Part shown: piece after piece, positions 3,713-63,827 of the stretch
Numbering within the stretch: the first letter of the stretch is position 1
How the letters are laid out: every line of letters starts with the position of its first letter
Virus record (IMG/VR): IMGVR_UViG_3300045988_005640
From: a virus
Lineage: Duplodnaviria; Heunggongvirae; Uroviricota; Caudoviricetes
Length of the DNA: 64,000 nucleotides
Reading direction: 5' to 3' (one strand)
Notes under the pieces: model-generated
Told to the model about the DNA's origin: nothing
Databases searched by the model: none
What the model saw: the letters and a program-made list of their open reading frames with translations, nothing else
Program-made: the position numbers and the translations under genes

Positions 3713-4212
3713 TGGCTGAAGTTATCTCTATTTCAAATGCTACACGAGTGCATTCGTATAGAGGTGTTCTTATTATCACTGACAAATTATCTGTAGAGGC
3801 TGGCTCAAGGGTCAGCCTTTCAGGTTATGTAAGTGATGGTGGAACCTCTGACGTTTTCACTATTTGTAGGTTACTTGATGCTCCAATGAGTGGAAAACCG
3901 TTTATTTCAGGAAATTGTAGTGAAATTGTTAAAATTCCATTTGACAGTTCATGCCTTTTGGGTGTAAAGTTATATAACTGCGAGAATAAACGTATCAATG
4001 TTAATAGCATTGAAGCCGCTTTCATTACCCTCGACACTGCATTTCAATCTCCAATGACAGTTAATAAAGAAACAAACAGACTTGAATACATTTTTTCACA
4101 AAATGATTACAAAGTACTTGTCAAAGGTAAAGTATATTATATGATTGTAAATGTGGTAGATGAATCTGGTAACCATTCAACAGTCCTTAAACAAAAAGTA
4201 AGGTTTAATTAA
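3712..4212 (+). CDS. Hypothetical protein
   Basis: 166-aa ORF, ATGA-type junction with portal gene; unusual position between portal and protease. Confidence 0.35.
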   Translation: MAEVISISNATRVHSYRGVLIITDKLSVEAGSRVSLSGYVSDGGTSDVFTICRLLDAPMSGKPFISGNCSEIVKIPFDSSCLLGVKLYNCENKRINVNSIEAAFITLDTAFQSPMTVNKETNRLEYIFSQNDYKVLVKGKVYYMIVNVVDESGNHSTVLKQKVRFN

Positions 4213-4544
4213 TGGGAACATTAACTATTGATGGTAAGAACAAAATCCTCGCCACGCTAACCCCAACGACTATTATTTTACACAATGTAGACCCAACGGC
4301 AGACCCTACAGCAAATAAGGTTACTCAGCCAGTGGCTATTTATTTTTCTGAACCGGATAATGGCTTAATTGCCTCAGAAGACACAGTTAACATTACTGTC
4401 CCAGCTTCTGCAACGGTCTCACACTATAGCTTGTGGGATGCTAACGATAAATGCGTGGCAACTGGTGCTCTTAGCAAACCTCAATTCTTTGCTGAAGAAG
4501 GTATCTATGTTATCTCTTCAGTCTCTGTAGATTTAAACAAATAG
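4212..4544 (+). CDS. Hypothetical protein
   Basis: 110-aa ORF start-stop coupled to upstream gene. Confidence 0.35.
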   Translation: MGTLTIDGKNKILATLTPTTIILHNVDPTADPTANKVTQPVAIYFSEPDNGLIASEDTVNITVPASATVSHYSLWDANDKCVATGALSKPQFFAEEGIYVISSVSVDLNK

Positions 4545-7902: not shown

Positions 7903-8384
7903 TGGTTAAAAGGGTTATTCACCCCGCGAGAGCAAAATTAGTCGGGGCTATGAAGAACTTGCAAACGGCTAATGCTCAAGTTGGGTATTTTCAAGAACAA
8001 GGTCAACATAGCTCTGGTTTTTCTTATCCTGCTTTAATGTATTTACAAGAAGTTATTGGGGTTCCTTCAGCTTCTGGTAAAGTATATCGTAGGTTGTTTG
8101 AAATCACTATGATGCTAAACAAACAGACCTTGTTAGAGCAGACTAAGAAGAATCTATATAAGCAACTTAGCAGTCTCAACACAGACCCTTCAAATACCTT
8201 AGAAGCATTTGCAAAGAATGCTCAAAAGGCAATTAAAAGGGGTTTTGGTAATTCTGCTATCCTCCCTCCTAACGCACCTTCCACAGTCAAGAAAAAAGGC
8301 TTTAACGCACCTCTTGTTGAGACAGGTGACTTAAGAGATAACCTTGCTTATAAAATTTCTACTAAGAAGGGTATTAAGAAATGA
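7902..8384 (+). CDS. Hypothetical protein (head completion or connector)
   Basis: 160-aa ORF, overlapping start-stop with neighbours. Confidence 0.3.
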   Translation: MVKRVIHPARAKLVGAMKNLQTANAQVGYFQEQGQHSSGFSYPALMYLQEVIGVPSASGKVYRRLFEITMMLNKQTLLEQTKKNLYKQLSSLNTDPSNTLEAFAKNAQKAIKRGFGNSAILPPNAPSTVKKKGFNAPLVETGDLRDNLAYKISTKKGIKK

Positions 8385-8782
8385 GACTCTTAAACAGACA
8401 CAGCTTTGTAGTAAAGCGTAAAGTCTCTGAAGACGGTTATTATAACGATGATGGTGATTGGGTAGCTTCACAAGATATTGTAGAGGTTAACTGTAAAGGT
8501 AATATCCAGCCATACATCAAAGGTTCTGTAAAGAATGGTACACAGATTGCTTTACCGGAAGGTATCAGGCTTACCGATACAAGAATCCTGTATACCACAT
8601 ATAAACTTAGAACTTCAGATGATGTAGAGTGGAATGAGTCTGATATTGTTATGATTGATGGTCATGAGTATGAAGTATTTATGACTATGGATTGGTCACA
8701 ACAATTAGCCCATACGTCCCATTATGAATATATCATTATTAGAAGGGATAAAATGAATGCAGTTAGAAACAGCAGAACTTGA
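8381..8782 (+). CDS. Hypothetical protein (head-tail joining)
   Basis: 133-aa ORF, 4-nt overlap with upstream gene. Confidence 0.3.
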   Translation: MRLLNRHSFVVKRKVSEDGYYNDDGDWVASQDIVEVNCKGNIQPYIKGSVKNGTQIALPEGIRLTDTRILYTTYKLRTSDDVEWNESDIVMIDGHEYEVFMTMDWSQQLAHTSHYEYIIIRRDKMNAVRNSRT

Positions 8783-11885: not shown

Positions 11886-19913
<8,028 letters not shown>

Positions 19914-23610: not shown

Positions 23611-23805
23611 ATGCCTACAATCCTAGCAATTCTTCTAAAAAATCTAGGTAGCTTCTTCTGGAAACTCATTTTATCCCTTCTAAGTGAATACATGATTGAG
23701 AAAGTGTTCTTTAAGCTTGCAAGACACCTTGCGAGTAAAACAGACACACCTATTGATGATGAGTTCGTAGATAACTTAGAAAAAGCTTTTAAGGGGGAGA
23801 AATAA
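23611..23805 (+). CDS. Small protein with hydrophobic/amphipathic N-terminus
   Basis: 64-aa ORF; N-terminal ILAILLKNLGSFFWKLILSLL segment, acidic C-terminus. Confidence 0.3.
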   Translation: MPTILAILLKNLGSFFWKLILSLLSEYMIEKVFFKLARHLASKTDTPIDDEFVDNLEKAFKGEK

Positions 23806-24177
23806 ATGAAGTGGCTAGAGGAAGCTTTTAAAAATAATATTGGTGCAATTGTAGTTGGTATTTTTAGTGTTATTGGGATGTATACCACGATGCAGGTTTC
23901 AAGTGGTAAACAAGAAGTGTCTGTCACAACAAAGTTACAGCAGCTAGATAATTATTCCAAAAGTAACTATTCAGCTATTCGTGATTTACAGTCTGACATG
24001 AGACTGATTCAGCTAGGGATGGAGAACCAGAAAGTTCAGTTAGAGAATGTTAAGGGTGAAAACGCAAAACTTACCAAAACTCTTGATAAATTCTCTGACA
24101 GTGTGAATAATCTGGCTCAATCAGTATCAGCCCTCCAAGCTATTACTGAAAAGAACACAAAGAATACTGAAAAATAA
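23806..24177 (+). CDS. Single-pass membrane protein with coiled-coil domain
   Basis: 123 aa; predicted TM helix IGAIVVGIFSVIGMYTTM followed by heptad-like Gln/Leu/Asn-rich region. Confidence 0.35.
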   Translation: MKWLEEAFKNNIGAIVVGIFSVIGMYTTMQVSSGKQEVSVTTKLQQLDNYSKSNYSAIRDLQSDMRLIQLGMENQKVQLENVKGENAKLTKTLDKFSDSVNNLAQSVSALQAITEKNTKNTEK

Positions 24178-30357: not shown

Positions 30358-30615
30358 TCACTCAATAACCGTAGTATGTGATTGTCCATTTTTGCCATAG
30401 CTGTAAGATGTTGTTGTTTGAGAGTTTGGACATCTGACAACAACAATATCTCTGCTTATAGCATCACCATGTAACTTGTATACTCTGCAATCTTGCATCT
30501 CTGGTGGGAGGCTATAAGAAGCATTTTTATCTTCATAAGAAGGGTTGCAGCCAGATAGAAAAATTACTCCAAGTGCAACCATTGCTTTCACACAACTCTC
30601 AACCTTATTGTTCAC
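30358..30615 (-). CDS. Lipoprotein (lipobox LSGC)
   Basis: N-terminal MNNKVESCVKAMVALGVIFLSGC with positively charged n-region, hydrophobic core and lipobox Cys; GTG start with GAGAGG RBS. Confidence 0.45.
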   Translation of the reverse strand: MNNKVESCVKAMVALGVIFLSGCNPSYEDKNASYSLPPEMQDCRVYKLHGDAISRDIVVVRCPNSQTTTSYSYGKNGQSHTTVIE

Positions 30616-39813: not shown

Positions 39814-40860
39814 ATGGAGAAGTACACATTAACAAAACTTCCCGATTCAGTTACACATGTTTTTATTGACTCTGACAGTATTGCCTATAAAGGTGCTTGT
39901 GTAGTTGAGAAATCAAAATATAAATACGTCAATAAACTCACCGCAGAAGAATCTGAGCCATTTGATAATGCGAAAGATGCTGCAAGATGGTTAGCAGACC
40001 AGAGAATCCTTGTAGAAGAACTTGGCCTGACATTTGATGAAGATGAATGGGAAAGACAGACTTGGAAAGAAGCTAAGAGTGAAAAAGAAGCTATCATGGC
40101 TACTCAACAGGTGCTTCAGGAATGGCTTAAGGTTGTTGGTAAAGAGAGAACTTGGGTAGGCTATTTAACAGAGAAAGGTGTGCATAAACATAAAGACATT
40201 AAAGGTCTTGAGCACCAATATCAAGGTAACCGTAAAGATGCTGTCACACCAACACACTTAGTTGCTTGTCGTGAATACCTTCTGTCAAGACCAGAGTTCA
40301 AACTAATTCTTGATGGATTTGAAGCTGACTCTATCGTAATTGCTAAAGCTGAAAAGATGGGTAAAAAGGCTGCCTTAATGAGTATTGATAAAGACCTTCG
40401 ACAAGCTGAAGGTACTTACTGCATTGATATGACCTATGAAAAATCACCTTTAATTTTTATTGCTGATAACAACGTTGGTGAAATTTGGGATTGCCCAATA
40501 AAATCAACACCAAAAGCTAAGAAGACAGTTGGGGTAGGTTTTAAATTTCTTTGTTATCAAGCTGTGGCTGGTGATAATGCAGATAACTATTTTGGTTTAA
40601 AGGGCGTTGGTAAGGTTGCTGTAATGAAAGCCCTTGAAGGTAAAACTACTTACAAAGAGTGTCTTGATGCAATTTATGAGCTTTATGCTAAGAAAGAGTC
40701 ATACACTTATGTCTCGTGGGATGGTCAAACAATTACCAGAACACCTTTAGAGTTAATGCAGCAACACTTTTTCTTAGCTTATCAGGAAAGAAATAAGAAA
40801 GATGATTTTACTTTTGATAAGTATGGGTGGACACCAAATGTTAACTCAACAAACTCTTAA
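39814..40860 (+). CDS. 5-prime to 3-prime exonuclease / flap endonuclease (FEN family)
   Basis: H3TH-like segment AGDNADNYFGLKGVGKVAVMKAL; N-terminal acidic cluster FIDSDSIAYKG; 348 aa. Confidence 0.55.
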   Translation: MEKYTLTKLPDSVTHVFIDSDSIAYKGACVVEKSKYKYVNKLTAEESEPFDNAKDAARWLADQRILVEELGLTFDEDEWERQTWKEAKSEKEAIMATQQVLQEWLKVVGKERTWVGYLTEKGVHKHKDIKGLEHQYQGNRKDAVTPTHLVACREYLLSRPEFKLILDGFEADSIVIAKAEKMGKKAALMSIDKDLRQAEGTYCIDMTYEKSPLIFIADNNVGEIWDCPIKSTPKAKKTVGVGFKFLCYQAVAGDNADNYFGLKGVGKVAVMKALEGKTTYKECLDAIYELYAKKESYTYVSWDGQTITRTPLELMQQHFFLAYQERNKKDDFTFDKYGWTPNVNSTNS

Positions 40861-47123: not shown

Positions 47124-47365
47124 TGACTTATGTGATTTACTCCAAAACTGGATGCCCTCAGTGTGAGACTGCAAAGAATTTTGCAAAAGCTCGTGGTATT
47201 GACCATGTTGTGAGAATGTTAGGGCAGGACTATGAACTGTCAGACCTGATGGATATTGCACAGATGCCAGTTCGTCAGATGCCATTCATCATGAAAACTG
47301 ATGGACAAAACCTAAAACCTGTTGGGACGCTACAGAATTTTATGGCAGAGGTGAATAATGCTTAA
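47123..47365 (+). CDS. Glutaredoxin-like redoxin (NrdH/NrdC-like)
   Basis: 80 aa; N-terminal VIYSKTGCPQCETAK CxxC motif; immediately downstream of nrdB. Confidence 0.6.
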   Translation: MTYVIYSKTGCPQCETAKNFAKARGIDHVVRMLGQDYELSDLMDIAQMPVRQMPFIMKTDGQNLKPVGTLQNFMAEVNNA

Positions 47366-47564
47366 ACGCATTTGGGAAGGTTTGGTTGTCGATGCACCAG
47401 CTATTGTGATTGGTATGCTGATTGTTAACCTATTTACTGATTTTGAACAAGGTTCATTGTTTGGGGCCATGTTACTATGGGTTATCTTTGAAATATTAGA
47501 GATACAGCTAGGCATCACTGAAAAACTGAGAAAACTCGTTTCTAAGTTTTCTAAAAAGATTTAA
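47358..47564 (+). CDS. Small two-TM membrane protein (holin-like topology)
   Basis: 68 aa; two hydrophobic segments and basic C-terminal tail KLRKLVSKFSKKI. Confidence 0.3.
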   Translation: MLKRIWEGLVVDAPAIVIGMLIVNLFTDFEQGSLFGAMLLWVIFEILEIQLGITEKLRKLVSKFSKKI

Positions 47565-49911: not shown

Positions 49912-50112
49912 ATGTTTAAAATATCAAAAGCGTTGATATACATTCTCCACATTCTAATCTTCTTCTTTGGGGTTAGTGTTATGGTATGGGGTTTTTCAGA
50001 CCCACAATGGAGTTTCGCATATCAGGGTCAGATGGATTTATGGTCATGCTTCAAACCATTTTTAGGGTTAGTCATAGCATTCAGTGCATTGCCAACTAAG
50101 GTGAAATTATGA
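49912..50112 (+). CDS. Small membrane protein
   Basis: 66 aa with two hydrophobic segments. Confidence 0.3.
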   Translation: MFKISKALIYILHILIFFFGVSVMVWGFSDPQWSFAYQGQMDLWSCFKPFLGLVIAFSALPTKVKL

Positions 50113-56114: not shown

Positions 56115-58481
56115 ATGCGCATGGTAAACGACCACGCAGAAGTGATTAAGAGTTCAACTTCTTTAGAGACGTCTCAAGCACAGATTACAATGACACCTGA
56201 AATGTTCAGCCTTTTGAGTTCTGGTGTATATACCTTTAAAGAAAGGGCAGTGATTCGTGAACTGTCATGTAACGCAGTAGATGCTCAGAAAGAGGCTGGA
56301 AAAGAGAACATCCCGTTCCATGTGCATTTGCCTACTCGTTTTGAGCCTTACTTTGAAGTTCGTGATTTTGGAACTGGATTAACTCATGATAAAGTTATGA
56401 GTTTGTACCTAAACTATGGGGCTTCTACGAAGAATGACTCTAATGACTACATTGGTGCAATGGGTATCGGCTCAAAATCACCATTTGCAATTGCTCAGTC
56501 ATTCACAGTGTCTAGCTATGTTGACGGTGTTGTTAATAAGTACTCTGTTTATCTTGAGAATGGTATCCCTCAAGTAACTAAACTGACCACTAACCCAACA
56601 AAAGAACCTAATGGTTTAGCTGTACGTGTGGCAGTTGCTGACCACCGTATTTCAAAGTTCTTTGAAGAGGCTGGTAATGTATACTCATACTTTGCTGTAA
56701 AACCAGAGAGTAATGTGGAGTATAATGATATATTAGCAGATATGGATGTGATTGCTCGTGAAGAAGGTGTCTATGATGCCATGACTCATAAGCATAGCTG
56801 GCGTTCAAGCAGCAATAGAACAGAGTTTAACGTGGTTATGGGTAATATTGCCTACCCAGTTAATATGGAGGCATTACTTGGTGATGATTTCTTCAAAGTA
56901 TTACCAGAATTTTTCCGCAGGAGCATAGACCTTGTAAACATCTACATGCCTATTGGTTCAGTTGCTATTGCAGCTTCTCGTGAAGCATTGCAGATGAATG
57001 ACACGACAAAAAATGTTATCATCGAGGCTACTAAAAAGATAACTGAAGCAATTACAAAGGATGTTATCAAGAAAGTTAATAGTCAACCTACACTCATGGA
57101 TGCTGCACAGGCTTATGCTGAGTTACGCTTAAACTCACGAGAGATGTTTAATGTTGTGTGTCCAAAGCTAGAGTGGGGAGGTGTTAAGCTTGATTCTCTG
57201 GAAGAAGAATTACTAAACATTCGTCGTGGAATTATCTACGCAGAAGACGGCTCAGTCATTTATGAACGTGACGGCAAAGGCAATATTAAGGTTGATAGGA
57301 ACGGGAACAATATCCCTAAAGTAGATTATCTTTATGACCCAGTTGCTTATGTCAAATTCAACTCTTTAGAGAGTAAGATTCGTGCAACATCGCTTTCCTA
57401 CACTCAAGAGGCAAGCATGTTCAATATCTTTGGCGCAATGCGTAAAAGCCAAATTGAACAGTTTTTGTTTGTTATAAATGACCGTCGCAATAAAAACGGT
57501 ACTGAGAAGACTGTAGGACGCAATCAAATCTTGCGTGGTGCATGTCGAGACTATGCCAGTGAGTCTAGTCTGTTTCACAGATACAATGGTATTGTATTTG
57601 TATTCTCGACTGAAAAAGAGCTAGATGACTTAGTCAATCTACACAAACTTGATAAAAGCTTGTTAAAGATTGTGAAGATGTCTGAGAAGGAACACCATTA
57701 TCAGCGTAAAGAAGCTGTAAGAGGTGTTGTAAAACTCTGGAAAGCTGTTCCAGCAGAAGGTGTAGCTTCCTATAAAGAGGTTTCAGAGGACTTTGATACA
57801 ATTGAAGAGCCTCAGCTTTACATTAAGGCAGTTGGTGATACAGTTGATGGTAGATGTTTTTGCTCATCTCCAGAAGATGTAGCTAAGTCAGTTGCTAATG
57901 TTACAGGTAAGACAGTCTATGTTTTCCGAAAAGCAAATTGGAAAAAGATACCAGAAGATTGGATTGAAGTAGATGAGAAACTCTTGAACGACAGCTTAAC
58001 TGATGTTCACTGGATTAACCATAACAGATATATGACGCGTATCTATATGAATGGTGTCCTTGACCTTACAAGCAGTTGGATTATTGCCAGAAACTTTACG
58101 TTTAATAACAGGAAGATTTCTCGCGGGTATTGTTATTCAAGGGATACTATTAAGACAATCTTCTTAGAAGGGAATGAAGATGCTGTTGAGGCAATGTTTG
58201 GTAAGATTCAGTATGTGGCTGCACCGTTTGCATACACTTACACTATCAGTGTTCTTCAGTATTTGAAGTCATGCCTTGATAATGACACAAAACTGTACAA
58301 AAAGATTAAGAAAGCAGGTGACCGCATGGTTATCAAGCTGACAAACTATCTTTCAAAAAGAAAACAAGAAAACTTCTTGCTTTCACACTTAGATTGGAAT
58401 AAAGTATCACCTATCGAAGTGAGTAAGTTTTTAGGCTTTGATGTGAAGTGTGTTCCAGAAGGGACTACAATTTACGATTAA
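56115..58481 (+). CDS. rIIA: rIIA-like protein with GHKL-type ATPase domain
   Basis: N-terminal Bergerat-fold boxes: RELSCNAVDA (N box), VRDFGTGL (G1), GAMGIGSKS (G2); 788 aa; immediately upstream of rIIB homolog. Confidence 0.65.
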   Translation: MRMVNDHAEVIKSSTSLETSQAQITMTPEMFSLLSSGVYTFKERAVIRELSCNAVDAQKEAGKENIPFHVHLPTRFEPYFEVRDFGTGLTHDKVMSLYLNYGASTKNDSNDYIGAMGIGSKSPFAIAQSFTVSSYVDGVVNKYSVYLENGIPQVTKLTTNPTKEPNGLAVRVAVADHRISKFFEEAGNVYSYFAVKPESNVEYNDILADMDVIAREEGVYDAMTHKHSWRSSSNRTEFNVVMGNIAYPVNMEALLGDDFFKVLPEFFRRSIDLVNIYMPIGSVAIAASREALQMNDTTKNVIIEATKKITEAITKDVIKKVNSQPTLMDAAQAYAELRLNSREMFNVVCPKLEWGGVKLDSLEEELLNIRRGIIYAEDGSVIYERDGKGNIKVDRNGNNIPKVDYLYDPVAYVKFNSLESKIRATSLSYTQEASMFNIFGAMRKSQIEQFLFVINDRRNKNGTEKTVGRNQILRGACRDYASESSLFHRYNGIVFVFSTEKELDDLVNLHKLDKSLLKIVKMSEKEHHYQRKEAVRGVVKLWKAVPAEGVASYKEVSEDFDTIEEPQLYIKAVGDTVDGRCFCSSPEDVAKSVANVTGKTVYVFRKANWKKIPEDWIEVDEKLLNDSLTDVHWINHNRYMTRIYMNGVLDLTSSWIIARNFTFNNRKISRGYCYSRDTIKTIFLEGNEDAVEAMFGKIQYVAAPFAYTYTISVLQYLKSCLDNDTKLYKKIKKAGDRMVIKLTNYLSKRKQENFLLSHLDWNKVSPIEVSKFLGFDVKCVPEGTTIYD

Positions 58482-58560: not shown

Positions 58561-59670
58561 ATGACTACTAAAACTAAAGCACAGATTGACGCAGAAATTT
58601 ACAAACTGGTTAAAGAAGGTAAGCTGACCAAAACAGCTATTGCACAGAAATTTAACACTTCAACCCGTTCAGTTGGTCGTGCTGTAGAGCGTCATGAAGC
58701 AACCTTAAAAGGGAAGAAGAAGGTGACTTCTACACCAGCTACGAAGACTTTGAAGCAAGTTGCTAAGACTTTTAAAAAGAAAGCTGGCAAACCAGTTGAA
58801 AAGGTCGTTAAAGACGCTGTACAGAAAGCTCCAGTAAATAAACTGCACGAAGCTATGCAGAAAGATGACAAGATTGAGTACATGATTACTGGTGATTCTG
58901 TAATTATGACTTATGGTTCAGAATCTGAAATTGTTGAGTCTACTCATCCGAACTATCAAGAGATTGTAGTTCATGTTGTGAAAGGTGAGTTCAAGAAAGC
59001 ATTTGAACTGATGAACATTCGTAAGTCTATCGAAAACTTCACTCAGGGTGCTATCACAATCAAAGGCGACAAGCTATTCTACGGTGCTGTTGAGATGCGT
59101 TCTACTCTGGTTGACCGTATTCTTCACATGATGAAAACTGGCGATAAAGGTTTTGAACGACTTGTAATGTTCTTCGAAAAACTGATGGAAAACCCATCTA
59201 AAGATTCTGTAGAACAACTTTGGGGATTTGTATCTCACCTTGATGTTGAAATTGATGAAGAAGGCTACATCATTGGTTGGAAGAAAGTCTCTACTCGTGA
59301 AGGCAAGCTGGTTGACTCTCACACCTACAAAGTGCCTAATGATTTGGGTAACATTGTAGAAATGCCACGTTGGATGGTTGATAATAACCGTAACGTAACT
59401 TGCTCTCAAGGTCTTCATGTTGGTGCTTGGGATTATGTTCGTTGCTTCTCAGGTGATACAATCCTGAAGGTTCGCGTACATCCACGAGATGTTGTATCTG
59501 TTCCAACTGATTACAACGATATGAAGATGCGTTCCTCTCGTTATGAAGTTGCAGCAATCGTTGATAATCAACGTAAAGTGCTGGAAGCATGGGACGGTAA
59601 GACTGAAGCTTTGCATGTCATCGTTGGCACTGCTGGTGAACTCATCTCTCAACGTAAACGTGAAATCTAA
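58561..59670 (+). CDS. rIIB: rIIB-like protein
   Basis: 369 aa; blocks VRVHPRDVVSVPTDYNDMKMRSSRYEV and CSQGLHV closely resemble T4 rIIB C-terminal region as recalled (not searched). Confidence 0.75.
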   Translation: MTTKTKAQIDAEIYKLVKEGKLTKTAIAQKFNTSTRSVGRAVERHEATLKGKKKVTSTPATKTLKQVAKTFKKKAGKPVEKVVKDAVQKAPVNKLHEAMQKDDKIEYMITGDSVIMTYGSESEIVESTHPNYQEIVVHVVKGEFKKAFELMNIRKSIENFTQGAITIKGDKLFYGAVEMRSTLVDRILHMMKTGDKGFERLVMFFEKLMENPSKDSVEQLWGFVSHLDVEIDEEGYIIGWKKVSTREGKLVDSHTYKVPNDLGNIVEMPRWMVDNNRNVTCSQGLHVGAWDYVRCFSGDTILKVRVHPRDVVSVPTDYNDMKMRSSRYEVAAIVDNQRKVLEAWDGKTEALHVIVGTAGELISQRKREI

Positions 59671-59696
59671 TAAGTAATTTCTTAAAAGGCTGCTTC

Positions 59697-59724
59697 GGCG
59701 GCCTTTTTTATTTGTATTTTGTGC
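59697..59724 (+). terminator. Intrinsic terminator with UUCG tetraloop
   Basis: aaggctgc-ttcg-gcggcctt followed by tttttt. Confidence 0.65.
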
Positions 59725-59750
59725 AGAGTGCTGTATAATTGTTGTCACGA
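59723..59750 (+). promoter_or_regulatory. Candidate promoter TTGTAT-N16-TATAAT
   Basis: Perfect -10 tataat at 59745-59750; contains TGTGCAG motif shared with window-end repeats. Confidence 0.4.
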
Positions 59751-59770: not shown

Positions 59771-60319
59771 ATGAAGAAATTGATTCTAGGTTTGTGCTTA
59801 ATGTTTACAGCACACTTATCTTATGCAGTTGACTGCCCAGAGCTATCAATTAGCCAAAAAGTGAACATGTTAAAAGCTTACCAGTATGGTGAGAATAACA
59901 TGGGTAAAGGTTGGGGTATCACTCTAGCAGCTATAGCCTTACAAGAGTCAGAGTTAGGTCTGAAGGTAGAAAATAAAAAGACCCATGACTATGGTATCTT
60001 CCAGAATCACTTGAAGACTGTTGTAAAGCGTAACAAAATTAGTCCTAATGTTGCTAAAAAGAAACTCTTAAAAGATTTTGACTATGCCGCAAAAGAAACA
60101 CATAAAGAGCTTGAGTTTTGGACGAAGGTACATGGTCACCCAAAGTCAAAGAAGACTTTACAAAAAGTTTTAGCATCATATAATGCTGGGTATTCGTACA
60201 GAATCCCTAAAGCTAAGAAATACTCTCAAGATGTCTATAACAATATGAAAGTTATCGCTCAATGTGAATTTGCAACAAACATTTCTAAGGTAAATCATGA
60301 AAAAATTAAGAAAGTCTGA
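59771..60319 (+). CDS. Secreted lytic transglycosylase-like protein (candidate endolysin with signal peptide)
   Basis: N-terminal signal peptide MKKLILGLCLMFTAHLSYA; SLT-type catalytic region AIALQESELG ... DYGIFQ. Confidence 0.5.
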   Translation: MKKLILGLCLMFTAHLSYAVDCPELSISQKVNMLKAYQYGENNMGKGWGITLAAIALQESELGLKVENKKTHDYGIFQNHLKTVVKRNKISPNVAKKKLLKDFDYAAKETHKELEFWTKVHGHPKSKKTLQKVLASYNAGYSYRIPKAKKYSQDVYNNMKVIAQCEFATNISKVNHEKIKKV

Positions 60320-60992
60320 TGAAGTCCTGTGCCACGCTTATGACTTGCATCCTCATGAGTTAGGTCTTGATTCCTGTGTATGGACTCCAGAACAGTGCAG
60401 AGATTTTGAAGACACTGCAAGAGAGGTTGTATGTTCACTTGAAGAGTTCCACACATCAGAACCCATTGTGAACGTTGTGGACAAAGAGACTGGACAAACT
60501 ATAGGTGTAAGGCGTGATAGTTTAGTGATAGTCAATAAAGACCTTGTAGAAAAAGGTAACCTCATCTTAGCAGATATTGATGGTGTTCTTACAAATTTTA
60601 ATCACGAAGATTGCTCAACGGAATTGACTGATGGGTCATTCTCACAGTACACTAATCTTCTTGATTCTGTAAGAGCAAAGCCAACATATGTTTTCAACAT
60701 TATTGATGCAATTGCAAATCATGCAGCAGTTGGACTCTTGACAGCAAGAGGTGAATCTCAGAGAATACCTACTGAGATGTTTTTAAGGCACAATATAGAG
60801 CATGATTACTTGCTTTTTATGCGTGGTTTTGGAACTAACTCTATAAGTGCAGAAAGTTTGAAAGTGAGGATGATTCAGTCTTGCATTCTTCCTTACTTTA
60901 ATATAGTATGCTTTATAGAAGATACAGAGAAGAATGTTCAGAAGGTAAACAGAATCCTTCCACACATTAAAACTATGTTAGTTAAACATTGA
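60297..60992 (+). CDS. HAD-superfamily hydrolase-like protein
   Basis: Motif I LILADIDGVLT (DxDG), motif II GLLTARG, C-terminal FIEDTEKN acidic motif; 231 aa. Confidence 0.4.
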   Translation: MKKLRKSDEVLCHAYDLHPHELGLDSCVWTPEQCRDFEDTAREVVCSLEEFHTSEPIVNVVDKETGQTIGVRRDSLVIVNKDLVEKGNLILADIDGVLTNFNHEDCSTELTDGSFSQYTNLLDSVRAKPTYVFNIIDAIANHAAVGLLTARGESQRIPTEMFLRHNIEHDYLLFMRGFGTNSISAESLKVRMIQSCILPYFNIVCFIEDTEKNVQKVNRILPHIKTMLVKH

Positions 60993-61003
60993 GAGAAGAA
61001 CTT

Positions 61004-61468
61004 ATGAACAATATCATTACGGTAGCACTGGACGATACGGCAAACAAATCTGAAGTAGTTCGTAAAATGATTCAAGGTAACTTTGAAGGTAAAATTTTCC
61101 GTGCTGTTAATGTAAAAGCTGATGGTAGCATTCGCGAATATCGTGCATTGTTGAACGTTAAGAAGCACGTAAAAGGTGTTGGTTCAACGACTGCACACAA
61201 AGAAAACCTGATGACTATCTATGATATGGGTAAGGCTTCAGAGTTAGGTGCTGAAGGTATCGTTAGAGAAGGTGCTCCGTATCGCTCTTTCAATCTGGAA
61301 ACTACTCTTATGCTTTCCTTTACAAGTGGTTCCAAAACAATCACTTATCTCTTTACTGATGCTGCAACGGTATCTGCTATTAAGGATAGCACTGTCAAAG
61401 CTGGCGTAGTTGCTGCTGCAAAAGCTTCTTCGATGGCTGCGAATATCCTTGCTAAAGTCCTCGGTTAA
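61004..61468 (+). CDS. Hypothetical protein
   Basis: ATG at 61004 after GAGAGAAGAA RBS preferred over ORF-track TTG 60989; 154 aa. Confidence 0.3.
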   Translation: MNNIITVALDDTANKSEVVRKMIQGNFEGKIFRAVNVKADGSIREYRALLNVKKHVKGVGSTTAHKENLMTIYDMGKASELGAEGIVREGAPYRSFNLETTLMLSFTSGSKTITYLFTDAATVSAIKDSTVKAGVVAAAKASSMAANILAKVLG

Positions 61469-61479
61469 GGTTAAGATAC

Positions 61480-61506
61480 AGGCTCCTTCGGGAGCCTTTT
61501 TCATTT
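61480..61506 (+). terminator. Intrinsic terminator with UUCG tetraloop
   Basis: aggctcc-ttcg-ggagcct followed by ttttt. Confidence 0.65.
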
Positions 61507-61520
61507 TAGGAGATTGTTAA

Positions 61521-61868
61521 ATGACATTTAAAGAGTTCTGTCAAGCTACTTTCATAATTGTTTTCTTAGTTGGGGCAGGTGTCTGGGGAGGATACTCTTA
61601 CAGAGACTACCAAGTTGCTGAAACTGAGCTAAATAATGAGAAGCTGATAAGTGTTGCTAAAGATGCTTATCAGGAAGGATTAGCTACACTGAGCACTAAT
61701 TACAAAAATGATTTGAAAGATGTGCTTGCTAAGAATAAGCACACAAAAGAGGTACTAACATATGAAAAAACTAAGCCAGAGTTTTATAATGTTTGTGTTA
61801 CTGATAATTATGTCAGGGTGTTCAACGAACAAAGTGAACAGTACATTCAAAAACTCCCAAGTAAGTGA
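61521..61868 (+). CDS. i-spanin candidate (Rz-like)
   Basis: 115 aa; N-terminal TM helix FIIVFLVGAGVWGGY then helical periplasmic domain; contains embedded out-of-frame lipoprotein gene. Confidence 0.5.
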   Translation: MTFKEFCQATFIIVFLVGAGVWGGYSYRDYQVAETELNNEKLISVAKDAYQEGLATLSTNYKNDLKDVLAKNKHTKEVLTYEKTKPEFYNVCVTDNYVRVFNEQSEQYIQKLPSK

Positions 61869-62031
61869 GAGTGATAAGTACACTCAAGAAGATTCAAGAT
61901 TCACTATCAAAGGTAATACTGGTAGTGATGTGGCAGCAGCCCTTGAGTTCTATCGTGATGGATTTTACCAGTGCACAATCAAAGCTAATAACCTTATTGA
62001 TATGATTTTATTAGGAAATAAACAGCAATGA
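61762..62031 (+). CDS. o-spanin candidate (Rz1-like lipoprotein)
   Basis: 89 aa; signal MKKLSQSFIMFVLLIIMSGC with lipobox; starts inside i-spanin gene in +1 frame and extends beyond it; AGAGG RBS. Confidence 0.5.
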   Translation: MKKLSQSFIMFVLLIIMSGCSTNKVNSTFKNSQVSESDKYTQEDSRFTIKGNTGSDVAAALEFYRDGFYQCTIKANNLIDMILLGNKQQ

Positions 62032-63041: not shown

Positions 63042-63827
63042 ATGGGTATTGTAAAAATCATCAATGGTGATATCTTTGCTGCATTTGATAAAGGTAAGTT
63101 TGACATCATTGGTCATGGTTGTAACTGCATGAACCTAATGGGCGCAGGTATCGCTGACAAGATTTCTAAACTTTACCCAAAAGCATATGAGACCGATACA
63201 GAAGTTTATCTATATGCAGGTGGTATAGGACACAAACCCTGTGAGAATTTACTAGGTAATTTCTCTGTAGCACGCTTAAAACAAGGTCGTATAGCTAACC
63301 TTTACACTCAGCTTAAGACTGGTAAAGATGCCCGATACAGTGCTTTAGAGTCATCTTTGAAACAGCTTAACAGATACTGTGAAGTTAATCAGTTGAAGAA
63401 AGTTGGTTTACCTATGATTGGTGCAGGTATCGGTGGACTTGACCCTCAAGCCATCACAGTTATCATCAATCAGGTGATGAAGAGTGTAGATGTTTATCTG
63501 TATGTCTATGAAGGCGAGATGTACCACAAGTTACGCTCAGGTTGGAAGAACTACTGTGAACCAGAATACTTTGCAGGTGTAGCAGTGTTCACAGATAACG
63601 CAGTTACCCTCTTCAGACGAAGAAAAGGTAAGATACATCAAAGTAACCCTCCGGTTGAAAAGATGTCTCTAAGTAACGCTCTAGTTACCCACCTGTCAAA
63701 GAGCAATCACAGAATTGCTGTAACATTTGGTAGTGATGCAGAAGCTTATATCTATGCAAGAACTGATGAGGATATCGAGGCAATCTTCTCTTCACCAGAA
63801 GTTACCTTCTTAGACGCAAAGAACTAA
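63042..63827 (+). CDS. Macro-domain-like protein (ADP-ribose binding/processing fold)
   Basis: INGDIF...DIIGHGCNCMNLMGAGIADKI aligns by eye with macro-domain GDIT...VNAAN..GGGV..AI block; later VGLPMIGAGIGGLDPQ aligns with AFPxISTGxYGxP block; extra about 100-aa C-terminal region. Confidence 0.5.
   Translation: MGIVKIINGDIFAAFDKGKFDIIGHGCNCMNLMGAGIADKISKLYPKAYETDTEVYLYAGGIGHKPCENLLGNFSVARLKQGRIANLYTQLKTGKDARYSALESSLKQLNRYCEVNQLKKVGLPMIGAGIGGLDPQAITVIINQVMKSVDVYLYVYEGEMYHKLRSGWKNYCEPEYFAGVAVFTDNAVTLFRRRKGKIHQSNPPVEKMSLSNALVTHLSKSNHRIAVTFGSDAEAYIYARTDEDIEAIFSSPEVTFLDAKN

What the first reader, a model, noticed from the sequence alone, without database searches (positions are those of the whole stretch)
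59771..62031. Lysis cassette: signal-peptide transglycosylase plus overlapped i-spanin/o-spanin pair, no obvious adjacent holin
A secreted SLT-like enzyme (signal peptide plus ESELG...DYGIFQ catalytic region) is followed 1.2 kb downstream by a gene for a type II membrane protein (61521-61868) that wholly contains the start of an out-of-frame lipoprotein gene with lipobox IMSGC (61762-62031), the classic overlapped Rz/Rz1 arrangement. No canonical holin is adjacent. Holin-like small membrane proteins occur elsewhere (47358-47564, 49912-50112, 23611-24177). A Sec-exported endolysin could imply a pinholin or holin-independent timing.
Basis: partly seen in the sequence, partly recalled or inferred. 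Interest (0 to 1): 0.45.

Follow-up and report, generated by a model that had tools for sequence, protein, structure and literature searches.

The report
Known spanin pair; SLT is Vs.1-like
This stretch of a Felix O1-like phage genome holds a real but already catalogued pair of overlapping outer-membrane-disruption (spanin) genes, and an exported cell-wall-cutting protein that is a relative of the uncharacterised T4 protein Vs.1, not the phage's main lysis enzyme, so it is not a lysis cassette.

Summary
The sequence features are all present as described. These are a 182-aa signal-peptide SLT-like ORF (59771-60319), a 115-aa N-terminal-TMD protein (61521-61868), and a +1-frame 89-aa lipoprotein ORF (61762-62031, lipobox IIMSGC) that starts inside it.

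The window is a Felixounavirus, 98.9% identical to Escherichia phage ECML-1. The spanin pair is genuine and conserved down to about 30-40% identity. One homologous pair lies in a P2-like Yersinia phage inside a holin-endolysin-spanin cassette. The pair is already annotated in many GenBank records and listed as "overlapped" in Kongari et al. 2018.

The SLT-like protein is a confident GH23 fold with an invariant catalytic Glu. It belongs to the T4 Vs.1 family, found in more than 2,100 phage records. T4 Vs.1 is an early-RNA/middle-protein product in a phage that has its own endolysin.

Felix O1-like phages encode a separate soluble GH24 lysozyme, about 13 kb beyond the window end in ECML-1. Curators place the candidate holin at the homolog of window 23806-24177. 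Intrinsic terminator-like hairpins separate the SLT unit from the spanins, and published notes say the lysis genes of these phages are scattered.

The "lysis cassette / Sec-exported endolysin / pinholin" reading is therefore not supported. This is an ordinary, already known feature. The only open item is the unknown role of the Vs.1 family.

The parts
59684..59713 (+). Intrinsic-terminator-like hairpin plus T-run after rIIB. It closes the rIIA-rIIB unit upstream of the SLT-like gene.
   Evidence: stem 59684-59707, 10 pairs, 5 GC, followed by TTATTTGTAT.
59771..60319 (+). Vs.1-family exported GH23 (SLT / goose-lysozyme-like) protein, 182 aa. The predicted cleavable Sec signal is aa 1-19 (59771-59827). 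E59 is the predicted catalytic residue. Family-1 lytic-transglycosylase-type motifs are ES, G-x-F-Q, S-Y-N-A-G and Y151.
   Evidence: phrog_600, 1e-57; EtgA E=7e-4; goose lysozyme; T4 Vs.1: 32% identity, E=2e-16.
60297..60992 (+). 'Polynucleotide kinase'-annotated protein, 231 aa. Only a HAD-phosphatase-like part (DIDGV motif) is recognisable. It overlaps the SLT-like stop by 23 nt. Not a lysis gene.
   Evidence: phrog_3970 6e-135; weaker PNK phrogs cover aa 84-219; no Pfam hit; no BLAST similarity to T4 PseT.
60989..61468 (+). Hypothetical soluble protein (phrog_2267, unknown function). The alternative ATG start is at 61013. Not a lysis gene as far as can be told.
61480..61505 (+). Intrinsic-terminator-like hairpin plus T-run, 16 nt upstream of the i-spanin start. 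A terminator is annotated at the equivalent place in phiEa21-4.
   Evidence: AGGCTCCTTCGGGAGCCT + TTTTCATTTT; terminator annotated before gene 12 of phiEa21-4.
61521..61868 (+). i-spanin, 115 aa. It has an N-terminal TMD (aa 6-24), a predicted helical periplasmic domain, and a conserved C-terminal motif F-x-N-x-C92-x4-Y-x3-FNE. The RBS AGGAGA lies 6 nt upstream.
   Evidence: (phrog_1152 Rz-like spanin, 8e-42).
61762..62031 (+). o-spanin, 89 aa. It has a lipoprotein signal MKKLSQSFIMFVLLIIMSG|C20. Ser at +2 means there is no Asp inner-membrane-retention signal. It also has a conserved second Cys71 and a conserved C-terminal N-x-LI-x2-I motif. It is in the +1 frame and overlaps the i-spanin gene by 107 nt.
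   Evidence: (phrog_4180 2e-50; phrog_456 Rz-like spanin 8e-5).
23806..24177 (+). Outside the finding: a 123-aa single-TMD protein at the end of the tail-fibre operon. This is the gene that CPT-curated relatives annotate as (putative) holin. It is preceded by a 64-aa hydrophobic/amphipathic ORF at 23611-23805.
   Evidence: (Mordin 'holin' followed by a terminator). Its families have no assigned function, so holin status is untested.

Best explanation
The segment lies in a region of a Felix O1-like (Felixounavirus) myovirus genome that resembles the T4 early region. Gene order is rIIA-rIIB | Vs.1-like GH23 protein - PseT-like phosphatase - hypothetical | i-spanin/o-spanin ... Tk.4-like macro-domain protein. 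It is not a lysis cassette.

(1) Spanins. The 61521-62031 pair is an overlapped two-component spanin. The i-spanin is anchored in the inner membrane by its N-terminal TMD. The o-spanin is lipidated at Cys20 and sorted to the outer membrane. Their periplasmic C-terminal regions bind across the periplasm. Once the peptidoglycan is degraded, the complex disrupts the outer membrane by fusing it with the inner membrane, which is the last step of lysis. This mechanism is inferred from lambda Rz/Rz1 and T4 PseT.3/PseT.2. It is not shown for this family.

(2) Endolysin and holin. Peptidoglycan degradation at lysis is done by a separately encoded soluble GH24 lysozyme. That gene lies outside the window, on the opposite strand about 13 kb downstream in ECML-1. 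It is presumably released by a separately encoded holin, whose candidate is at 23806-24177.

(3) SLT-like protein. It is a member of the T4 Vs.1 family, a Sec-exported periplasmic GH23 enzyme with an intact catalytic Glu. It most likely acts as a low-level lytic transglycosylase that remodels the host sacculus during infection, in the way host or secretion-system 'specialised' transglycosylases such as EtgA do. It is not the timing-controlled endolysin. Its precise role is unknown.
For: Identity of the phage:
- 98.9% identity over 2.7 kb to ECML-1, and 256 Felixounavirus-type records cover the region.

Spanins:
- phrog_1152 'Rz-like spanin' at 8e-42.
- Annotated as i-/o-spanin in many records, including CPT-curated Maleficent with the same starts.
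- The overlapped +1 architecture, the lipobox Cys and one extra Cys per partner are conserved in Mooglevirus, Kolesnikvirus and a P2-like Yersinia phage. In that Yersinia phage the pair follows holin and endolysin.
- Kongari 2018 lists Felix01/FO1a/UAB_phi87 and phiEa104/phiEa21-4 as overlapped spanins.

Separate endolysin:
- JLBYU32 'putative lysin' and ECML-1 'lysozyme', PF00959 at 4.8e-40 and phrog_7 endolysin at 4.6e-56.
- It is absent from the window.
- Felix O1-type lysins have been studied as enzymes (Han 2019 as cited).

Scattered lysis genes.

Vs.1 membership:
- tblastn hits in 2128 phage records, including T4, Acinetobacter phage 133 and Aeromonas phage PX29 'vs.1'.
- BLASTP to T4 Vs.1 gives E=2e-16.
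- Invariant E59/Q78/Y137/N138/G140 and N-terminal signal-like segments in all members aligned.
- GH23 fold.
- The vs.1-SLT similarity was noted by Nolan 2006.

Timing by proxy:
- T4 vs.1 is early RNA/middle protein, and T4 pseT.2/pseT.3 are early.
- Terminator-like hairpins separate the units.
Against: - No experiment exists on this spanin family or on any Vs.1 homolog.
- The spanins have no detectable sequence similarity to lambda or T4 spanins.
- The mature o-spanin has no proline, unlike lambda Rz1.
- i-spanin topology cannot be derived from flanking charges.
- The single-sequence i-spanin model is low confidence (pLDDT 48.7).
- Expression timing of these genes in a Felixounavirus is unknown. 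The promoter scan found no convincing promoter in front of the SLT-like gene or the spanins.
- The window itself does not contain the GH24 lysin, so its presence in this exact genome is inferred from 97-99% identical relatives.
- Some GenBank records do call the SLT-like protein 'putative lysin'.
- One CPT note says no holin could be identified in a Felix O1-like phage, so a non-canonical lysis control is not strictly excluded.
Confidence: 0.8

Rival explanations
1. The SLT-like protein is the phage's endolysin, exported by Sec. With the spanins it forms a compact lysis cassette whose timing is set by a pinholin or is holin-independent.
For: - It has a signal peptide and a GH23 fold with a catalytic Glu.
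- It lies 1.2 kb from the spanins.
- Some records label it 'putative lysin' or 'lysin'.
- One announcement failed to find a holin.
Against: - Relatives have a canonical soluble GH24 endolysin.
- Homologs occur in T4-like and Vi1-like phages. T4 has its own endolysin; this was not checked for the Vi1-like phages.
- The T4 homolog is made early/middle without causing lysis.
- A terminator-like hairpin and two unrelated genes separate it from the spanins.
- The N-terminus has a short h-region plus an S-Y-A site, not a SAR-type long weakly hydrophobic TMD.
- CPT curators leave it hypothetical.
Confidence: 0.05
2. The Vs.1-like enzyme is an accessory lysis or envelope factor that works with the spanins. 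It would be a 'specialised' space-making lytic transglycosylase, like EtgA/VirB1 for secretion systems. It would locally thin or open the sacculus so that i-/o-spanin complexes can bridge the periplasm, or so that final lysis is faster.
For: - The best PDB sequence match is EtgA, the T3SS-specialised transglycosylase, which is also among the fold hits.
- The rIIB ... Vs.1-like - PseT-like ... i-spanin order is conserved across Ounavirinae genera.
- In T4 the Vs.1 homolog is early RNA/middle protein and the spanins are early.
- In a Vi1-like phage the homolog lies about 1 kb from an annotated holin.
Against: - This is pure inference. In T4, vs.1 and the spanin genes are about 70 kb apart.
- Proximity in Ounavirinae may reflect only shared ancestry of an early-gene block.
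- No genetic or biochemical data exist.
- Spanins of phages that lack Vs.1, such as lambda, work without such a helper (established knowledge).
Confidence: 0.12
3. The Vs.1-like protein has lost or never had muralytic activity. It would act as a periplasmic peptidoglycan-binding or exclusion/defence-related factor, for example superinfection exclusion or protection against lysis from without.
For: - The Pfam SLT score is below the gathering threshold.
- Foldseek E-values are modest and TM is about 0.5.
- It is made early in T4, which would suit an exclusion function.
Against: All residues characteristic of family-1 lytic transglycosylases (E-S, G-x-x-Q, Y-N-x-G, Y) are invariant across very divergent members. 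That argues for retained catalysis.
Confidence: 0.06

Closest known systems
Felix O1 / phiEa21-4 overlapped two-component spanins, as catalogued by Kongari et al. 2018 (PMC6139136) and annotated in GenBank Felixounavirus and Mooglevirus records
   Same: Same genes. The i-spanin is 97-100% and the o-spanin 93-100% identical to many annotated records. The architecture and start codons match CPT-curated Maleficent.
   Different: Nothing material. Some records mis-start the o-spanin at MSGC or omit it.
Phage P2 LysB/LysC and lambda Rz/Rz1 spanins
   Same: An N-terminal-TMD protein plus an outer-membrane lipoprotein encoded in the +1 frame starting inside the first gene. The overlapped class is as in P2. 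There are periplasmic Cys residues in both partners.
   Different: No detectable sequence homology. The o-spanin is longer (69-aa mature), lacks proline and has a conserved, probably helical C-terminal segment. The gene pair is not next to a holin or endolysin.
T4 PseT.3/PseT.2 spanins
   Same: Lysis genes are scattered rather than in a cassette. The spanins sit near a pseT-type gene in a region resembling T4's early region. Sizes are similar (117/99 aa against 115/89 aa). T4 spanin genes are early and complement lambda Rz/Rz1.
   Different: The T4 genes are in the separated architecture and in the opposite order relative to pseT. There is no sequence similarity beyond the signal and TMD.
T4 Vs.1 (uncharacterised conserved ORF with marginal SLT similarity; Nolan et al. 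2006, PMC1524935)
   Same: Homolog: 32% identity, E=2e-16. Same length, N-terminal signal-like segment and the same invariant motifs. Same PHROG-type family, spread over T4-like, Vi1-like and Felix O1-like myoviruses.
   Different: The genomic neighbours differ. In T4 the order is regB-vs.1-vs-tk.4. Here it is rIIB-vs.1-like-pseT-like. The Felix-type proteins have an extra conserved Cys pair (C22/C165) and Asp73.
Specialised lytic transglycosylases of secretion systems (EtgA, and by recollection IagB/IpgF/VirB1) and goose-type lysozymes (GH23)
   Same: Small (about 150-190 aa) Sec-exported single-domain GH23 proteins. These are the best sequence and fold matches. The Glu aligns, and in the Felix-type proteins so does the Asp that pairs with EtgA's second acidic residue (alignment).
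   Different: Only about 15-19% identity. No associated secretion apparatus. Phage-encoded, with unknown function.
SAR endolysins (P1 Lyz, phage 21 R) and the Sec-exported endolysin Lys44 of Oenococcus phage fOg44
   Same: Muralytic enzymes that reach the periplasm or wall through the Sec system without a large-hole holin.
   Different: Those are the sole endolysins and sit in lysis cassettes. Here a separate GH24 endolysin exists. The N-terminus looks cleavable rather than SAR-like, and the T4 homolog is an early/middle product.

Membership tests
Two-component spanin: i-spanin | Single N-terminal transmembrane domain (type II, N-in/C-out) | tested here: met
   Hydrophobic segment at aa 6-24, KD 1.75 (19-residue window) and 2.91 (11-residue window). 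It is conserved in homologs. Orientation itself is not testable from the sequence.
Two-component spanin: i-spanin | Predominantly alpha-helical / coiled-coil periplasmic domain | tested here: inconclusive
   The single-sequence AF2 model is all-helical but low confidence (pLDDT 48.7).
Two-component spanin: o-spanin | Lipoprotein signal with lipobox Cys and no Lol-avoidance Asp at +2 | tested here: met
   MKKLSQSFIMFVLLIIMSG|C20-S-T meets the lipoprotein rule. C-S-T is invariant in 4 divergent homologs.
Two-component spanin: gene architecture | The o-spanin gene is embedded in, overlapping or immediately following the i-spanin gene | tested here: met
   +1 frame with a 107-nt overlap. The same arrangement is found in Maleficent, phiEa21-4 and Yersinia phage 324.
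Two-component spanin: genomic/functional context | Family members occur in bona fide lysis cassettes or complement Rz/Rz1 | tested here: met
   Homologs in the P2-like Yersinia phage vB_YenM_324 follow annotated holin and endolysin genes. Complementation is not testable here.
Two-component spanin | Periplasmic Cys residues for intermolecular disulfides | tested here: met
   Cys92 (i-spanin) and Cys71 (o-spanin) are invariant. Disulfide formation itself is not testable here.
Phage endolysin (for the SLT-like protein) | Muralytic catalytic domain | tested here: met
   GH23 fold with an invariant Glu. Activity was not assayed.
Phage endolysin (for the SLT-like protein) | It is the phage's dedicated lysis-time muralytic enzyme, usually linked to a holin and expressed late | tested here: not met
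   Relatives carry a separate GH24 endolysin. No holin is adjacent. The T4 homolog is early/middle.
SAR endolysin | N-terminal, weakly hydrophobic Gly/Ala/Ser-rich TMD of about 20 residues that is not cleaved | tested here: not met
   The h-region is only about 11 residues (LILGLCLMFTA), followed by an S-Y-A|V site.
T4 Vs.1 family (phrog_600) | Full-length homology to T4 Vs.1 with shared motifs and an N-terminal signal | tested here: met
   BLASTP E=2e-16 at 32% identity. phrog_600 at 1.2e-57. Alignment invariants.
GH23 family-1 lytic transglycosylase (SLT, PF01464) | Motifs E-S, G-L/I-M/F-Q, A/S-Y-N-x-G and a downstream Tyr (motif list recalled from the literature), and a Pfam match above threshold | tested here: inconclusive
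   All motifs are present and invariant, and the fold matches. The Pfam score of 19.2 is below the gathering score of 21.3. Several more distant homologs do carry PF01464.

The most novel reading that the evidence does not exclude
The Vs.1 family is an early-made, Sec-exported lytic transglycosylase, conserved in more than 2,100 records of T4-like, Vi1-like and Felix O1-like virulent myoviruses. It could be a dedicated 'space-making' enzyme that pre-conditions the host sacculus. For example, it might let spanin complexes bridge the periplasm, or set the speed or robustness of lysis. That would make it an unrecognised fourth player in Gram-negative phage lysis.
Probability: 0.12. Interest if true: 0.5.

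Novelty: already known. Interest (0 to 1): 0.15.

Why it matters
It matters little as a discovery. The spanin pair is already catalogued and annotated, and the scattered layout of Felix O1-like lysis genes is published.

The useful outcomes are corrective.
- The SLT-like gene next to rIIB should be named as a Vs.1-family exported GH23 protein. It should not be called 'lysin', 'endolysin' or 'RegB endoribonuclease'.
- The o-spanin should be started at MKKL..., not MSGC....

The one open biological question it touches is what the widely conserved Vs.1 family does. A second open point is that the Felix O1-type holin has never been verified.

Tried and rejected
- BLASTP of the i-/o-spanins against T4 PseT.3/PseT.2 and lambda Rz/Rz1. 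Only signal/TMD and low-complexity matches were found, so there is no homology claim.
- BLASTP of the 'PNK' against T4 PseT gave nothing.
- NCBIfam on all locus proteins gave only noise-level hits.
- Pfam on the spanins gave only sub-threshold noise.
- The single-sequence AF2 model of the i-spanin was low confidence and is used only as weak support for helicity.
- Promoter scan. No convincing sigma-70 promoter was called upstream of the SLT-like gene or the spanins. A perfect TATAAT at 59734-59739 has only a 3/6 -35 at 17-nt spacing (read). Expression timing is therefore left to the T4 proxy.
- Literature searches for 'LysO1 / Felix O1 endolysin' and 'Vs.1 periplasm' returned irrelevant papers. 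One search failed on term length.
- Phage UE-M6 holin/endolysin paper. It is not a Felixounavirus and was discarded, apart from its citation of Han 2019.
They belong to PHROGs with no holin assignment: phrog_4532 has unknown function, and phrog_11929 is described only as 'membrane protein' in the moron/host-takeover category. Relatives annotate them only as 'membrane protein'. There is no evidence either way.
- The DUF7338 protein called 'putative holin' in JLBYU32 lies outside the window.
Full report
**What is in the sequence**

- 59771-60319: 182 aa.
- 61521-61868: 115 aa.
- 61762-62031: 89 aa, in the +1 frame. It starts inside the previous gene (107-nt overlap) and runs 163 nt past it.

Two unrelated ORFs lie between the first and second of these.
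- 60297-60992: phrog_3970, annotated 'polynucleotide kinase'. Only a HAD-phosphatase-like part is recognisable.
- 60989/61013-61468: phrog_2267, unknown function.

rIIA (56115-58481) and rIIB (58561-59670) lie upstream. Each gene has a plausible Shine-Dalgarno sequence.

**Which genome this is**

The region is 98.9% identical to Escherichia phage ECML-1. It is 97-98% identical to wV8 and to dozens of other Felixounavirus genomes. In total, 256 records cover at least 80% of it. Window position w corresponds to ECML-1 position w+318.

**The spanin pair is real**

- The 115-aa protein has one N-terminal hydrophobic segment at aa 6-24. It hits phrog_1152 'Rz-like spanin' at 8e-42.
- The 89-aa protein begins MKKLSQSFIMFVLLIIMSG|C20-S-T.
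- That N-terminus meets a PROSITE-type lipoprotein rule. Only 3 loci among 1373 ORF/start combinations in the window meet it, and shuffled sequence gives about 1.7. The motif alone is therefore not decisive.

Conservation is the decisive evidence.
- The same +1 overlapped arrangement occurs in Citrobacter phage Maleficent (77/79% identity), Erwinia phage phiEa21-4 (24/36%) and the P2-like Yersinia phage vB_YenM_324 (30/41%).
- The same C-S-T lipobox end is kept in all of them.
- One additional invariant Cys is kept in each partner: i-spanin C92 and o-spanin C71.
- Conserved C-terminal motifs are kept in both partners.

In the Yersinia phage the pair sits directly after annotated holin and endolysin genes. 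This gives independent contextual support that the family is a spanin family.

There is no detectable similarity to lambda Rz/Rz1 or T4 PseT.3/PseT.2 beyond the signal and TMD. That is normal for spanins, which form many unrelated families. The helical nature of the periplasmic domain could only be weakly checked. The single-sequence AF2 model is all helix, with pLDDT 48.7.

**The spanin pair is already known**

- Many GenBank records annotate these genes as i-/o-spanin.
- These include curated records from the Center for Phage Technology with the same start codons.
- Kongari et al. 2018 list (Felix01, FO1a, UAB_phi87) and (phiEa104, PhiEa21-4) in the 'Overlapped' class.
- Some records mis-start the o-spanin at MSGC, which removes the signal peptide. 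One paper reports it as missing in one phage. These are probably annotation artefacts.

**The SLT-like protein**

- The Pfam SLT score is sub-threshold: 19.2 bits against a gathering score of 21.3.
- The family alignment makes E59, G63, Q78, Y137, N138, G140 and Y151 invariant.
- The AF2 model is confident, with mean pLDDT 84.6 and a core above 95.
- Foldseek's top hits are g-type lysozymes, a GH23 chitinase, EtgA, the Cj0843 SLT, MltE/MltF/MltD and phiKZ gp144.
- A profile search of PDB sequences puts EtgA first (E=7e-4), then goose lysozyme.
- The N-terminus has two Lys, an 11-residue hydrophobic core and an S-Y-A|V site. It looks like a cleavable Sec signal, not a SAR domain and not a lipobox.

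The observation 'secreted SLT-like enzyme' therefore stands, as far as sequence can show.

**Why it is not the endolysin of a lysis cassette**

1. tblastn finds homologs in 2128 phage records. Besides Ounavirinae, these are T4-like phages, where the gene is vs.1 (T4, Acinetobacter phage 133, Aeromonas phage PX29), Vi1-like Ackermannviridae and large Vibrio phages. Direct BLASTP to T4 Vs.1 gives 32% identity and E=2e-16 over the full length. The weak SLT similarity of vs.1 was noted in 2006. By established knowledge, T4 lyses with endolysin e and holin t.
2. In time-resolved T4 omics, vs.1 is classed early-RNA/middle-protein. This means an exported Vs.1 is present long before lysis without causing it.
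3. Close relatives encode a separate, canonical, signal-less GH24 lysozyme. In JLBYU32 it lies at 18962-19426. In ECML-1 it lies at 77248-77712 on the opposite strand, about 13 kb beyond the window end. It scores PF00959 at 4.8e-40 and phrog_7 endolysin at 4.6e-56. It is absent from the window. Felix O1-type lysins of this kind have been studied as enzymes (Han 2019 as cited).
4. [quoted passage not shown] CPT curators leave the SLT homolog as 'hypothetical protein'.
5. Terminator-like hairpins at 59684-59707 and 61480-61497 bracket the SLT-PNK-hyp block and separate it from the spanins. The second hairpin has an annotated counterpart in phiEa21-4.

**The holin**

The 123-aa single-TMD protein lies at the end of the tail-fibre operon. 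It is the gene that curated relatives call holin or putative holin. Its PHROG has no assigned function, and one CPT note states that no holin could be identified. Holin identity in this group therefore remains unverified. The other two small membrane ORFs (47358-47564 and 49912-50112) have no holin evidence.

**How it most likely works**

- *Shown here:* gene architecture, conservation, fold and family membership.
- *Inferred from lambda and T4 work:* the i-spanin in the inner membrane and the lipidated o-spanin in the outer membrane form a periplasm-spanning complex. The peptidoglycan meshwork holds it in check. When the separately encoded GH24 lysozyme destroys the wall, the complex fuses the two membranes.
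- *Inferred for the Vs.1-like protein:* it is most plausibly a catalytically active, low-level periplasmic lytic transglycosylase that remodels the sacculus during infection. It resembles specialised transglycosylases such as EtgA. Its actual role is unknown.
- *Parallel with T4:* the layout resembles T4's. Lysis genes are scattered, the spanins sit near a pseT-type gene, and a Tk.4-like macro-domain gene is nearby. The gene order differs, and the proteins other than Vs.1 and Tk.4 are not detectably homologous.

**Verdict**

The residual open question is the function of the Vs.1 family. The most novel reading not excluded is a space-making or lysis-accessory role, which I rate at about 12%.

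Noticed in passing
window 30358-30615 (-): A second predicted lipoprotein in the window (…VALGVIFLSG|CNPS…, 85 aa, or 77 aa from an internal start). It hits phrog_902, which has unknown function. It could be an exclusion-type lipoprotein, but nothing supports that yet.
   Followed up: partly
window 63042-63827 (+): A macro-domain protein (PF01661 at 3.9e-7; phrog_335 'phosphatase'), equivalent to T4 Tk.4. In T4, tk.4 lies two genes from vs.1. The region therefore preserves fragments of T4-like early-region synteny: rIIA-rIIB, vs.1, a pseT-like gene, the spanins and tk.4.
   Followed up: partly
window 60297-60992 (+): The gene annotated 'polynucleotide kinase' in relatives has no P-loop. Only a HAD-phosphatase-like segment is recognisable (LADIDGVLT; phrog hits cover aa 84-219). 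It has no BLAST similarity to T4 PseT. Its start overlaps the SLT-like stop by 23 nt.
   Followed up: partly
L002 (fjerdesal) 8211-8432; L006 (Tian) 3998-4510; L003 (JLBYU32) 39999-40193: Annotation errors in public relatives. The o-spanin is started at MSGC, so it has no signal peptide. The Vs.1 homolog is named 'putative endoribonuclease RegB', the name of the neighbouring T4 gene. A 64-aa hydrophobic/amphipathic ORF is named 'L-fuculose phosphate aldolase'.
   Followed up: no
GU169904.1 (Staphylococcus phage SA1) 125695-126039 and 86638-87199; two 'Campylobacter' records: Records named for unrelated hosts carry Felix O1-like DNA, with a 100% identical i-spanin. These are probably contaminated or mis-assembled database entries.
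   Followed up: no
Kuravirus-like podophages (KBNP1711, 172-1, SU7, ES17): The i-spanin has 31-37% identical homologs in roughly 77-kb podophages annotated 'Rz-like spanin'. The o-spanin tblastn finds no partner there. This suggests either faster divergence or exchange of the o-spanin partner.
   Followed up: no
window 23611-23805 and 23806-24177 (+): A 64-aa hydrophobic/amphipathic ORF is followed one nucleotide after its stop codon by the 123-aa single-TMD 'holin' candidate. They lie at the end of the tail-fibre operon, and a terminator follows in Mordin. This could be a holin/antiholin-like pair, but it is untested.
   Followed up: partly
L007 (Salmonella phage Marshall) 1204-1365 and 2402-3019: In this Vi1-like phage the Vs.1 homolog lies about 1 kb downstream of a CPT-annotated 53-aa holin, with an NrdA.1-like gene between them. 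An NrdA.1-like gene also precedes the Vs.1 homolog in Erwinia phage Tian.
   Followed up: no
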